DNA of 64,000 nt, from assembly GCF_009914755.1 (NCBI RefSeq), contig NC_060927.1; one strand, written 5' to 3'. The stretch comes from the human T2T-CHM13v2.0 reference genome, Homo sapiens. A program made the translations under genes and the position numbers. The notes below the pieces were generated by a model. The model made no database searches. It was not told the DNA's origin and worked only from the letters and a program-made list of their open reading frames with translations. Positions within the stretch are counted from its first letter, which is position 1. Every line of letters starts with the position of its first letter. This document shows positions 47,473 through 55,300 of the stretch, piece after piece.

Positions 47473-48769
47473 TTAAGTATGAGGAGACAGAATCTTGCAA
47501 AGCACACAAAAGCCAAGGGTCATTAGAGGTTGAAAGGAGAAACTACAACAAATTCCTATGTGTATCCTGCATGGAGCTGTCTATAGAAGGAGGGAGGGAG
47601 CAAGGTAGGCAAGAAAATACCATAGCCTGGGCGCCACAGGCAGCTAAGTGTTAGTCAAGGAATACTGCCTGCCAGATTTTCAAGAAGAGCCTGCTCCAGA
47701 GAAATAGGAGGGACCTTTAAAATCATCCAGGTCAACCCCTCGTTTAACAGATGGGAGGCTTCGCCCTGAGAGAGGCCCAGTAACCCACCAAAGATCTTTA
47801 GTGGCGTGACAGAGGGACCAGGGATATGTCTAATAACTGAAATGTCTGTATAATCACAGTGTACACAGTATTTCTACCCAAATTATCTTACTTATCTTCA
47901 CAAGTAGCCTTTGAGCTGAGTGGGAAAGTACTATTAAAATTCCTATTTTTCAACCTGAGGTCGAATGACTTGTCCAGGGAAAGATTCAAATCCAGACGGT
48001 CACACCCCGAGTCCACTGCTCTTTCTCTATACCACAACTTCATGCCTGTGCTGGGTTTTAGCACAATCATTTCAACTTTCATCATATTGCAGATTCCGAA
48101 TTCTGTTTCATTACAAGTTCTTTTTCCTCTTATTTCACACTGCCTTCAGCAATATTTCACATTCAACCTTACCTGGTAGGATCCTACTGATCTTTTGTCG
48201 TAAAAGTTCAGTGCCCACAATTGGCACCAGAAACTTTTTTCTAAACTTGAATTATCAAAACTGGGCCTTCCCATATAAATCATCTTTACAAAGTATGTCC
48301 TCACAAGTGTATCATTTGAGATGTGCACGATTATTACAGCAAACACGTTGGACTAATTGAGGCAACATTTAACATGCAAGTACCAAGAAAGCAGCTTTCA
48401 CAAATGTGTAGAAAACCAAGGCAAATAGTTCCTGGCTTTATCAATAAAAGCTGATTTGCATTCATGGGAGGACCTCCAAGCACAGTCAGCAACAGAGAAA
48501 ATGATCCCGATAATTCCAGTTGCCCACATCCAGAGGTTCTGAACCTGAATGTGTGTCTTTACTGAGGGAGGTCCAGGGAAGGCCAAGGGGAAGAAAGTGC
48601 TAAGAAAAAACTGACTGGGAACTGTCTCAATGTCCTCTTGCCCTTACTTAGTCTGTGGGGCCTGACGTTCCATCACAACCCTTATTTCAGGAGCAAGCAA
48701 TGCATGTTTTGCTCCTCTTTTCAACTCAGGGAAGAAGATTAAAATTGCTCAGTCTCCTTGGCTTGCAGA

Positions 48770-51122
<2,353 letters not shown>

Positions 51123-51274
51123 TTAATGCTTTCTCTAACAATTGTGGGCTGTGATTGAGAAGCGAGGTCAGTTCACCTGTGTCATGAGATTTGTGGAGAG
51201 GTTCTTCCCCCTGTGAAGTTTGGGCACTTTGCACTCTGCCTGCAAAACAGAGCAAGGATTTTCTTTTTCTTTTC

Positions 51275-51368
51275 TTTCTTTTTTTTTTTTTTCGTTTTTA
51301 GAGATGGAGTTTCACCATATTGCCCAGGCTGGTCTCAAACACATGGACTCAAGTGATCATGCCCGGCC
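51275..51368 (-). mobile_element. Alu monomer fragment
   Basis: Poly-T plus partial reverse left arm. Confidence 0.75.
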
Positions 51369-51424
51369 ACTGAGCAACCATTTTCACAACCACCTTTTGC
51401 AAGAGATTCAAAAAAGGGTTAAAA

Positions 51425-51781
<357 letters not shown>

Positions 51782-51933
51782 TCACAAGAATTTTCAAGGA
51801 ACCAAATGAGATGTTTCCTACTGATAGTAGTCAGAACCCTGGTGCCCAGTCACAGCCAACTGTGAGTTTTGGTCAGCAGAAACCAACGCCTAGTAAAGAA
51901 GACAATGATGTGGGGTATGTTGGACTTGGAGTG

Positions 51934-52205
51934 TCAGAGCCACTTTGAAGATCCAGTAACCTCAGCTTCCTGGCTTAGGCCGGGTCCTTATGGGTGAGAA
52001 ACATGAAAAGGAAGAAGAGAAGGAATGGAGGAGAGGAAAAGGAGGGAGGAGAAGCTTATGATTAAGAATGAGAACAAAAAGAAAACAGAAAGGAAATAAA
52101 TCACACTCAGAGTGCTGCCCACATCTTTGGTACTTTCACAGTCCTCAAAGGTTTCCATGGAGATAAATGAGCTCAAGTTATGGTGAGATGTAGCAGGCAG
52201 TGCCT
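51934..52205 (-). pseudogene. Diverged remnant resembling terminal exons of MCF2L2
   Basis: FISMETFEDCESTKDVGSTL(S) vs recalled MCF2L2 FSSMDTFEDCEGAEDMEKESSALS; then a 120-nt GT..AG pyrimidine-rich intron and PGLSQEAEVTGSSKWL* vs AGLFQSDDSHETCSSK. Confidence 0.55.
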
Positions 52206-52356
52206 ATCCTCAGAAACTAATTCTGCTCTTATCTCTGACACTTACTCTCTCAGGGCCTTCACTGCTTCCCCTGGGCAGTAAGGAAGTGGGTCTGTGATCT
52301 CCAAGTTCCCTTTTCCAGCTCTGAAATCCTATAACTGGAATTAAGAAGAAATGATC

Positions 52357-52824
<468 letters not shown>

Positions 52825-52842
52825 TTATATTATGCCTCTTTG

Positions 52843-53201
52843 TGCTGTGGTTTCAATGTGTTCCCCAAAGTTCATGTGTTGGAAACTCAATCCTCAATGC
52901 AACAGCATTGAGAAAGAAGACCTTTAAGAGGTGATTAGGTCATAAGGGCTTTGTCCCGAGTTAATGCTGTTATCTCTGGAGTAGGTTCCTGATAAAAGGA
53001 GGAGTTGGTCCCCTTCTCCCTTCCTCTCACCCATGTGATGCCTTCCACCACGTTATGAGGCAGCATGAAGGCTCCCAGCAGGTACACCCCTCGATCTTAG
53101 ACTTCCCAGCCTCCAACACCAGGAGCCAAAGCAATTTCTGTTGATTATAAATTGCCCAGCCCATGGTTTTCTGTTAGCGCAGCACAAAACAGACTAAGAC
53201 A
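52843..53201 (+). mobile_element. MST (MSTC/D-like) MaLR LTR
   Basis: tgctgtggtttcaatgtg...acagactaagaca. Confidence 0.8.
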
Positions 53202-53518
53202 TCTCAGCTGGCAAAATCAGAGAAACAAGCTAGAAAAGCCTGCTTCCTTCTCCAGTGAACCAATTAACAATCACTCACATCTACTGAACATCCGCTATGG
53301 TTGTGATAGGCAGTGTCAGGTACAGCAACTACCACCACCATATAGCAAGTGACCGTTCTGTGTCTAGTATGATGTTAGACATTTTACAAACACCATTGAG
53401 GCCTCACAACAACACTCTAAAGGCTTTAGCCTCATTTTGCAGATACCACTGTAAAGGACCAAACTGTGTCCTTTACAAAACCTAGACCATTCTCTCCCTT
53501 CCGGTAAAGAACTGCTCA

Positions 53519-53813
<295 letters not shown>

Positions 53814-54009
53814 AGAATTGCTCAAGCTCCACGTCCCTGTAGATTCCACCTCACTATGGGTGAACTGTCAGTGCAACCTCTGACAAAGGAAAGACAGACA
53901 AAGGACCTCCCTTAGAGAGCAGTGGCTGGCACTACAGCCTCCTCAGCCCCTGATGCCACAGGTGAGGGTGGAGATTCCTGAGGTATCAAGGAGGCCCCCA
54001 GTTTCATCT

Positions 54010-54200
54010 ACATCTGTGGTTCGCAGACTTCAGCAGCATCACCTGGGAATAGAAGTAATTTTTACAAAAACAGATTTCTGGACCCCACCTCCAGGATTCT
54101 GATTTAGTAGTCTGGATTGGTACCCAAGAATCTGCATTTCTAACAAGTCCCCAGGAAAATTGATGGTACTAGTCTTGGGATTACCCTTTGAGCACCACTG
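54010..54200. mobile_element. MER5A-like hAT element
   Basis: cagcagcatcacctgg...aagaatctgcatttctaacaagtcccc...ctttgagcaccactg. Confidence 0.7.
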
Positions 54201-54249
54201 GCCTAGATGACAGCTCTTCAAACTTCTTAGTTGCAAATCATAGTATGAT

Positions 54250-55300
54250 TGTGCTATGAGAAAGAGATTTGGCCTTCACCCCAAGGTCCTGGCATATAGC
54301 TCCTAAGCCTCTTGGAATTTCCTTAATGATAATGTGATAGGAGTGTCTTTTGTTCTAATGAAGAGACTCCTAGCAGACCTCTAGATAGCTTCAGAACACA
54401 GCCTGGTCACCAGAAAGACCAAGCCTTGGTTAGAGGGTTAGAACTCTCAGCCTTATCCCTCAACCTCTAGGAAAGGGAAAAATGCTGGAGGTTGAGTTAA
54501 CGACCAAGGGCCAATGATTTAATCAATCCTGCTTACAGATCAGACCCTCCATAAAAATCCCAAAATGAGGCCGGGCACAGTGGCTCACACCTGTAAATCC
54601 CAGCACTTTGGAAGGCCAAGGAAGGCAGATCACTTGAGCTCAGGAATTCAAGACCAGCTTGGGCAACACAATGAAACCACATCTCCAAAAAAGTCAAAAA
54701 CTTAGCTGGGCATGGTGGCATATGCCTGTGGTTCTAACTACTTGCGGGGCTGAGGAGGGAGAATCCCTTGAGCCCAGGAGGCTGAGGCTGCAGTGATCTG
54801 AGATCACACCACTGCCCTCCAGCCTATGTGACAAAATGAGACCCTGTCTCGAAAAAAAAAAAATCTCTAAATGATGGGGTCTGGGAGCTTCTGGATTGGT
54901 AAACACATCGAGTGCTGGGAGGGTGGTACGCCTGGAGAGGGCATGGAAGCTTTGCAGACCACCACCTCCCATACTTTGCCCTGTGTACCTCTTCCGTTTG
55001 GCTTTTCCTGAGTTGTATCCCTTACAGTAAACTGGTAATGATAAGTAAAGCACTTTCCTGAGTTCTGTGAGTCATTCTAGCAAATTATCAAACCTGAGGA
55101 GGAAGTCAGGGGAACTCTCAATTTATACCCAACCAGGCTGAGGATTTGTAATTGGTGTCTTAATTGAGGGGCAGTCTTATGGGACTGTGCCCTTAACCTG
55201 TGGTGTCTATTCTAACTCTAGATAGTTAAAATCAGATTTGAATTGAATTGTTGGACACCCAGTTAGTGCCAGAGAATGAAAAGTGGCGTTGGAAAAGATC
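54250..55300 (+). mobile_element. MER21-family LTR with AluJ insertion (54569-54862)
   Basis: ggtcaccagaaagaccaag...ggccaatgatttaatcaatc...ttggacacccag. Confidence 0.75.

What the first reader, a model, noticed from the sequence alone, without database searches (positions are those of the whole stretch)
51934..52205. Fossil of the MCF2L2 3' end just upstream of its own promoter
Seen: the minus strand encodes SSFISMETFEDCESTKDVGSTL, then A|GT at 52107/52106, a 120-nt strongly pyrimidine-rich intron ending cccatAG at 51987, then (R)PGLSQEAEVTGSSKWL* with stop at 51936-51934. From recall, the MCF2L2 C-terminus has REFSSMDTFEDCEGAEDMEKESSALS-LAGLFQSDDSHETCSSK. Two colinear matches separated by an intron point to genomic duplication rather than retroposition. 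Inference: the tail of an old head-to-tail MCF2L2-like paralog whose other exons lie further upstream or were erased by the repeat block; it may be intact in other mammals. A much weaker candidate exon ([16 protein letters not shown]|GTatga, about 52745-52697) loosely resembles WIKNMERATTSKEDPA.
Basis: partly seen in the sequence, partly recalled or inferred. Interest (0 to 1): 0.75.

Follow-up and report, generated by a model that had tools for sequence, protein, structure and literature searches.

The report
Old broken copy of MCF2L2 tail
Just upstream of the human MCF2L2 promoter lies a broken, 72%-identical genomic copy of part of the gene's own tail; it is likely a dead relic about as old as placental mammals, and it likely preserves the older sequence that the working gene and two sister copies later overwrote by GC-biased gene conversion.

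Summary
Window 51150-54065 is a same-orientation, 72.5%-identical copy (875/1207 sites, K2P 0.35) of MCF2L2's tail. It holds the end of intron 27, most of exon 28, the start of intron 28 and a piece of the flank beyond the gene. A 5.9-kb gap removes the last two exons, and a 65-nt deletion removes the exon's acceptor. No other MCF2L2 exon was found in the 61 kb up to KLHL6. Two more copies exist on 3q27, both inverted: one near KLHL6 and one near ADIPOQ (likely MCF2L2P1). Their flanks are as old as the window copy (K2P 0.36-0.37), but their GC-rich cores are 92-93% identical to the gene, which points to later GC-biased gene conversion. The window copy escaped it and keeps the ancestral residues (ISME, as in non-simian mammals; the human gene and the ADIPOQ copy have SSMD). 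Verdict: an ordinary, unannotated, ancient unprocessed pseudogene fragment, with a modestly interesting conversion history.

The parts
51150..51264 (.). Block homologous to unique DNA about 4.4 kb beyond the MCF2L2 3' end (chr3:185980508-627), same orientation
   Evidence: nhmmer E 4e-7, the only non-self hit in the 284 kb searched; 64/91 identical; the source stretch is single-copy apart from the ADIPOQ-side copy
51721..51839 (.). Continuation of the downstream-flank block (185980640-768) after Alu insertions
   Evidence: Colinear with the previous block; E 0.0037; 78/113 identical; marginal on its own (score 2305 against a null maximum of 2293)
51840..51876 (.). Junction zone where about 5.9 kb of the gene (185980769 to about 185986745, holding exons 29 and 30 and the 3' UTR) is missing
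   Evidence: Left homology ends at 51839 and right homology starts at 51877; no match to exon 29 or 30 in the region
51877..52104 (-).
   Evidence: Three-way alignment; real exon and intron boundaries
52105..52173 (-). Decayed exon 28 (third from last; the number is inferred from the 30-exon annotation): acceptor and first about 11 nt deleted, 9-nt in-frame deletion, ancestral I and E residues kept
   Evidence: tblastn of 6 orthologues gives this stretch as best hit in 5 of 6
51988..52167 (-). 59-codon open frame (FISMETF...HVSHP*) that reads through the donor to the same stop position as camelid predicted read-through isoforms; no evidence of expression
   Evidence: 47.5% over 61 aa, E 5e-9 against P0010
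52179..52336 (-). Copy of intron 27 (185987122-266)
   Evidence: 110/144 identical
52343..52671 (+). Alu-type insertion private to this copy, with a 12-nt target-site duplication
   Evidence: D16; the gene sequence is contiguous across it. The name Alu is recognised from recall
52661..52817 (-).
   Evidence: 110/150 identical
52843..53201 (.). Old interspersed-repeat insertion (solo-LTR-like, MLT1/MaLR type by recall), absent from the gene
   Evidence: Best near-full-length relatives are 71-78% identical among 40 scored of 3030 candidates; the gene is nearly contiguous across it (185987438 to 487)
53203..53439 (-). Copy of intron 27 (185987486-728)
   Evidence: E 2.4e-17; 150/218 identical
53506..53828 (+). 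Alu-type insertion with a 17-nt target-site duplication, next to a gap of about 1.3 kb relative to the gene
   Evidence: D12
53840..54065 (-). Last block, copy of intron 27 (185989123-331); shared by all four copies
   Evidence: E 2e-16 to 4e-15 to the gene and both sister copies; the window copy alone differs at 37 of 175 sites

Best explanation
The stretch 51150-54065 is a same-orientation, deletion-riddled genomic copy of MCF2L2's tail region, likely non-functional and likely made around the origin of placental mammals in the same episode as two inverted sister copies, which likely went on exchanging sequence with the gene by GC-biased gene conversion while this copy did not. Shown: colinear homology over exon, introns and flank; loss of the acceptor and of exons 29-30; private repeat insertions; equal old distances for all three copies (K2P 0.35, 0.36, 0.37); young GC-rich cores in the two inverted copies (K2P 0.08); ancestral residues in the window copy. 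Inferred: the age in years, a single origin episode, conversion as the cause of the young cores, GC bias as the cause of their composition, and lack of function.
For: 14 of 64 tiles scored above 2300, all on the same strand and colinear; the best opposite-strand and reversed-sequence nulls were 2293 and 2207 (threshold chosen by me). Pooled identity 875/1207, K2P 0.353 (95% 0.31-0.40); old flanks of the ADIPOQ-side copy 663/925, K2P 0.362; old flanks of the KLHL6-side copy 693/973, K2P 0.372; cores 2871/3110 and 1373/1478, K2P 0.081 and 0.075. One old flank tested genome-wide is not a repeat (2 matches: itself and the KLHL6-side copy). At 970 three-way sites the gene and the ADIPOQ-side copy agree against the window at 221; among these the pair has G/C and the window A/T at 140, the reverse at 47 (p 6e-12). 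Outside the GC-rich core the same count is 23:24 in 204 sites. GC falls from 0.57-0.61 to 0.35-0.43 about where identity drops. 12 of 12 Old World monkey proteins have S-S-M-D, like the human gene and the ADIPOQ-side copy; 9 of 9 named non-simian proteins have I/V-S-x-E, like the window. The private LTR-like insert is as diverged from its relatives (71-78%) as the copy is from the gene.
Against: No mammalian genomes were available, so age, orthology and direction of conversion rest on human paralogues and orthologous proteins only. The left-block control is small (47 informative sites). The gene also shows a mild G/C excess over the ADIPOQ-side copy in its old right flank (102:72, p 0.03), though not over the KLHL6-side copy (101:122, p 0.18), so part of the GC signal may be a property of the gene itself. 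Blocks were aligned locally and chosen by me, which inflates identity. The ADIPOQ-side copy has blocks of intermediate identity (81-90%), so the history has several layers. No expression or chromatin data were examined, so a regulatory role 1-4 kb from the promoter is not excluded. The 59-codon frame has stayed open to the homologous stop.
Confidence: 0.8

Rival explanations
1. Remnant of a whole-gene head-to-tail tandem duplication (about 250 kb): the window copy is the 3' end of the upstream twin, and the rest was deleted.
For: The orientation and order are what such a junction predicts: promoter, then downstream flank, then the gene's tail. Copies here do shrink by deletion: the window copy lacks 5.9 kb, and the ADIPOQ-side copy jumps from 185992740 to a unique piece at 186002321-3700.
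Against: No other exon (6 orthologue proteins, tblastn) and no other colinear unique intron piece (blastn, E<=1e-3) in the 61 kb up to KLHL6. The candidate at 54870-55290 is a common repeat. Both sister copies are also confined to the tail. 10 kb of the gene (186176001-186186000) was not held for the DNA comparison.
Confidence: 0.3
2. The young cores of the two inverted copies are not conversion tracts but fresh primate duplications that landed in older paralogous ground, or shared conserved elements; the window copy is then simply the oldest copy.
For: The KLHL6-side segment is flanked on both sides by pieces of one old repeat-like sequence, as for an insertion. The core includes a CpG-rich stretch (observed/expected 0.86 and 0.89) that could be under selection.
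Against: Old and young parts are colinear and contiguous in both copies. Selection since the placental root would not give the pseudogene the simian-derived S and D residues.
Confidence: 0.15
3. The window copy is used: a co-opted promoter-distal element, or a 57-aa hydrophobic micropeptide from the ATG at 52158.
For: It lies 1.1-4 kb from the TSS on the gene's strand. The read-through frame is open for 59 codons to the same stop as camelid predicted isoforms.
Against: No RefSeq functional element or transcript overlaps it (hub table). The acceptor is deleted. In the 21 aligned codons there are 7 changed residues plus a 9-nt deletion. CpG is depleted (observed/expected 0.07). T-rich DNA is poor in stops, and a net in-frame indel sum has about a one-in-three chance. 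No similar protein was found (weak tests).
Confidence: 0.07
4. One reading: two spliced terminal exons separated by a 120-nt intron.
For: GT and AG exist at those places with a pyrimidine tract between them.
Against: The second piece is intron 28 DNA. The real junction is SALS|L[AS]GLFQ or a close variant in the full-length orthologues, phase 0, 378-nt intron. The peptide match is at chance level.
Confidence: 0.02

Closest known systems
MCF2L2P1 (pseudogene near ADIPOQ, 3q27.3)
   Same: The inverted copy at chr3:189.64-189.65 Mb is an unprocessed copy of the same tail. It lies 27 kb from the top C1q-domain match of chr3, and PMC13702204 (one table passage seen) lists MCF2L2P1 beside ADIPOQ. 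The identity of the copy with MCF2L2P1 is inferred, not looked up.
   Different: That copy keeps exons 28-30, is inverted, and has a core 92% identical to the gene. The window copy keeps only part of exon 28, is direct, 72% identical and not annotated.
Unprocessed (duplicated) pseudogene fragments and ancient segmental duplicates
   Same: Introns kept, colinear, splice site lost, private repeat insertions.
   Different: It is far below the usual >90% identity cut-off for catalogued segmental duplications (definition recalled), and it sits beside its parent's own promoter.
Non-allelic gene conversion with GC bias (Harpak et al., bioRxiv 10.1101/135152; passages seen)
   Same: The paper reports converted regions at 48.9% GC against 39.6% in unconverted ones, a repair bias of about 67% towards G/C, and eventual escape as duplicates diverge. 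The gene and its two inverted copies show this pattern.
   Different: Here the homogenised stretches are 1.5-3 kb (mean tract in the paper 250 bp, detected tracts 880 bp), one partner is 3.7 Mb away, and the exchange would have lasted tens of millions of years after duplication (inferred).

Membership tests
Unprocessed pseudogene fragment | Significant homology to a parent gene | tested here: met
   E 1.1e-37 genome-wide; seven colinear blocks
Unprocessed pseudogene fragment | Intron or flanking DNA retained | tested here: met
   Introns 27 and 28 and the downstream flank align
Unprocessed pseudogene fragment | Disabling lesions | tested here: met
   Acceptor deleted, exons 29-30 missing, no upstream exons found
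Unprocessed pseudogene fragment | No functional product | not testable with these tools
   No expression data; the hub table lists no gene or element here
Processed pseudogene | Exon-exon junctions without introns | tested here: not met
   Introns are present on both sides of the single exon
Head-to-tail whole-gene tandem duplicate | Same orientation, with downstream flank joined to the promoter side | tested here: met
Head-to-tail whole-gene tandem duplicate | Further exons or introns of the twin upstream | tested here: not met
   None found in 186236036-186297000; later deletion cannot be excluded
Head-to-tail whole-gene tandem duplicate | Intact paralogue at this place in other mammals | tested here: inconclusive
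   No mammalian genomes are held; protein searches showed no named paralogue but are weak, as one search missed even true orthologues
Catalogued segmental duplication (>1 kb, >90%; definition recalled) | Identity above 90% | tested here: not met
   72.5% for the window copy; the cores of the two sister copies reach 92-93%
GC-biased non-allelic gene conversion (gene with its inverted copies) | Patchwork of young tracts within old colinear homology | tested here: met
   K2P 0.08 against 0.36-0.37
GC-biased non-allelic gene conversion (gene with its inverted copies) | Excess of A/T to G/C change in the tracts | tested here: inconclusive
   140:47 in the core against 23:24 outside, but polarised by one outgroup only, and one old flank shows 102:72
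GC-biased non-allelic gene conversion (gene with its inverted copies) | Tracts group by species, flanks by locus | not testable with these tools
   Needs other mammalian genomes; the shared simian-derived residues point that way

The most novel reading that the evidence does not exclude
Two inverted pseudogene copies of placental age, 0.3 Mb and 3.7 Mb away, kept converting with MCF2L2's 3' end until early simian times. GC-biased repair rewrote the primate C-terminus (I to S by ATC to AGC, E to D by GAA to GAC), raised GC from about 40% to about 60% and built twin CpG-rich islands, one of them upstream of ADIPOQ. The direct copy beside the promoter escaped and is an in-genome record of the ancestral sequence.
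Probability: 0.5. Interest if true: 0.5.

Novelty: new member of a known kind. Interest (0 to 1): 0.3.

Why it matters
The fragment itself is an ordinary dead copy. Its value is as a built-in outgroup: four copies of one block, of equal age, differ in orientation and distance, and only the inverted ones look homogenised. That makes a small natural test of how orientation and deletions govern ectopic conversion, and of whether GC-biased conversion with pseudogenes fixed amino-acid changes in a primate protein. In practice, the 92% identity between MCF2L2 exons 28-30 and the ADIPOQ-side copy could mislead probe and short-read mapping in a region studied for diabetes traits (inference).

Tried and rejected
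2) Window 54090-54340 and 54870-55290 as further MCF2L2 relics: multi-copy repeats. 3) Homology between the promoter-proximal 48001-50800 and the DNA downstream of the gene: none above null against 185976001-185996000. 4) An 84% partial hit of the LTR-like insert at chr3:189.45 Mb as another paralogous block: only the repeat matches, no flanks. 5) Copies of upstream exons elsewhere: a genome-wide protein search found MCF2L2-specific matches outside the gene only at the ADIPOQ-side copy, with a stricter first look than usual; the DNA search with the exon region 186012700-4900 was swamped by Alu candidates (40 scored of 5017), as were by other repeats, so these negatives are weak. 6) Protein searches with the window's frame: 0 of 202 longer and 0 of 4 similar-length candidates at E<=1; uninformative. 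7) Literature: seven searches (MCF2L2 with duplication; MCF2L2P1; MCF2L2 with gene conversion; MCF2L2 with pseudogene; MCF2L2, inversion, breakpoint; MCF2L2, paralog, ADIPOQ; and a general conversion search) listed no title or abstract on these copies. Most hits were seen as listings only, and closed-access papers, UCSC chained self-alignments and Ensembl pseudogene tracks were not seen. The one paper holding both 'MCF2L2' and 'gene conversion' was irrelevant (passage seen). No structure prediction was run, as there is no credible protein.

Full report
Observation. A genome-wide search with window 51880-52300 gave three matches: itself, the real MCF2L2 tail at chr3:185986765-7045 in the same orientation (74%, E 1.1e-37), and an inverted match at chr3:189648602-8881 (72%, E 7.4e-33). 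Below, A is the gene, B the window copy, C an inverted copy near KLHL6 and D the inverted copy at 189.65 Mb.

The real exon structure. From the genomic DNA and 23 proteins found with the exon 28 region, the last exons are the WIKNM exon (27), CSSREF...SALS (28; 185987062-6974), LAGLFQ...EET (29) and a terminal exon (30). The numbers are inferred by counting back from the annotated 30. Intron 28 is 378 nt, GTAATT to TTCCAG, phase 0. The peptide PGLSQEAEVTGSSKWL scored no better than shuffles against four orthologue tails (62-528 of 1000), whereas the first peptide beat all 1000 in each case. The weak 'exon' is intron 27 DNA.

Anatomy of B. Seven colinear blocks between 51150 and 54065 match A from 185980508 to 185989331, 875 of 1207 sites identical, K2P 0.353. 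14 of 64 tiles between 48001 and 56600 exceeded the best null scores, all on one strand and in order. The two left blocks come from single-copy DNA beyond the gene's end; the second is marginal alone. Between 51839 and 51877 about 5.9 kb of A is missing, including exons 29, 30 and the 3' UTR; part of that gap is young repeats private to A. A 65-nt deletion removes the acceptor of exon 28. B carries private Alu-type insertions with target-site duplications and an old LTR-like insert whose best relatives are 71-78% identical; the repeat family names are recalled. In the 61 kb from the TSS to KLHL6, six orthologue proteins found no other exon (no other hit below E 0.1), and blastn found no other colinear unique piece except C. 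10 kb of the gene was not held for that DNA comparison.

Sister copies. C (core 186284581-186287584) and D (held stretch 189638501-189658500) are inverted. D keeps exons 28-30 and a unique piece from further up the gene. It lies 27 kb from a C1q-domain match and is likely MCF2L2P1, which PMC13702204 lists beside ADIPOQ (one table passage seen). Both copies are mosaics. Their flanks are 71-72% identical to A (K2P 0.362 and 0.372, the same as B within the bootstrap intervals), and their cores 92-93% (K2P 0.081 and 0.075). D also has blocks at 81-90%. One flank tested genome-wide is single-copy apart from C. By recalled neutral branch lengths, 0.35 between two human paralogues is near the placental root (about 100 million years) and 0.08 is near the simian splits; these dates are not computed here.

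Conversion and GC. Where A, B and D align (970 sites), A and D agree against B at 221; A/D have G/C and B has A/T at 140 of these, the reverse at 47 (p 6e-12). Outside the core the A-B count is 23:24. GC steps from about 0.6 to about 0.4 near the ends of the young tracts. Against a clean reading, A also shows 102:72 over D in an old flank (p 0.03), though 101:122 over C, and only one outgroup polarises the counts. Proteins add independent support: 12 of 12 Old World monkey sequences, human A and D have S-S-M-D; 9 of 9 named non-simian sequences, sifaka included, have I/V-S-x-E, as B does. Both codon differences (ATC/AGC, GAA/GAC) run from A/T in B to G/C in A. So D exchanged with A after the lemur split, and B did not. 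This matches the pattern described for non-allelic conversion in bioRxiv 10.1101/135152 (passages seen; its supplements were closed).

How B arose. A local duplication of roughly 7-9 kb fits equally well and needs no lost 240 kb. B and C lie in the B3GNT5-KLHL6 interval scored as a synteny break in cow and opossum in PMC2681463 (a table passage and part 1 of 3 of supplementary file 1 seen). That rests on old assemblies and is only a lead. PMC5499878 (passages seen) reports one MCF2L2 among the 71 human Dbl-like genes and its loss in mice; those passages mention no extra paralogue.

A side result. Camelid predicted isoforms end at the matching place (P0009-P0011), and the frame is open to it in both A and B (B against P0010 47.5% over 61 aa, E 5e-9). 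Nothing here shows that it is used.

Verdict. B is a real, unannotated, ancient unprocessed pseudogene fragment: a new member of a known kind. I found no description in seven literature searches (mostly listings seen), but genome-browser self-alignment tracks were not available. Interest is 0.3, and would be 0.5 if the conversion history is confirmed across species.

Noticed in passing
G000:C3:186283771-186287593 (L024; window coordinates about 97800-101600): An inverted, purely intronic copy of MCF2L2 intron 27 between TVP23CP3 and KLHL6, not in the hub's gene list, with a 93%-identical GC-rich core and 71% flanks. It is bordered on both sides by pieces of one old repeat-like sequence.
   Followed up: partly
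G000:C3:189639528-189654542 (L032, L025, L031): The likely MCF2L2P1 block is much larger than its exons: at least 15 kb, from the gene's downstream flank to a unique piece above exon 27, with exon 27 itself not found, and identity varying from 67% to 94%. Its ends were not reached.
   Followed up: partly
L005:840-975 (real intron 28) and window 51988-52104: Read-through of the exon 28 donor gives a 38-residue hydrophobic tail ending at the same place in the human gene, the window copy and camelid predicted isoforms; TTCTCACCCATAAGGACC is identical in all three human copies. It may be a conserved alternative C-terminus.
   Followed up: partly
L005:1-600 and L025:5550-6150: Twin CpG-rich stretches (GC 0.68-0.70, CpG observed/expected 0.86-0.89) over MCF2L2 exons 29-30 and in the copy upstream of ADIPOQ.
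   Followed up: no
L004:5008-5817: A young L1-type 3' fragment (95-98% identical to many genome copies) downstream of MCF2L2, absent from the ADIPOQ-side copy; the family name is recalled.
   Followed up: no
L005:3899-4199: An Alu with old-subfamily (AluJ-like, recalled) features sits in the gene's intron 27 but is cleanly absent from the KLHL6-side copy, within the high-identity stretch; it could help date the exchange.
   Followed up: no
window interval B3GNT5-KLHL6: PMC2681463 scores a cow and opossum synteny break in this interval, and a mouse and rat break next door between MCCC1 and LAMP3.
   Followed up: no
L033:865-1079: An 84% partial match to the LTR-like insert at 52964-53176, higher than any other hit and also on 3q27; the flanks do not match.
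   Followed up: yes
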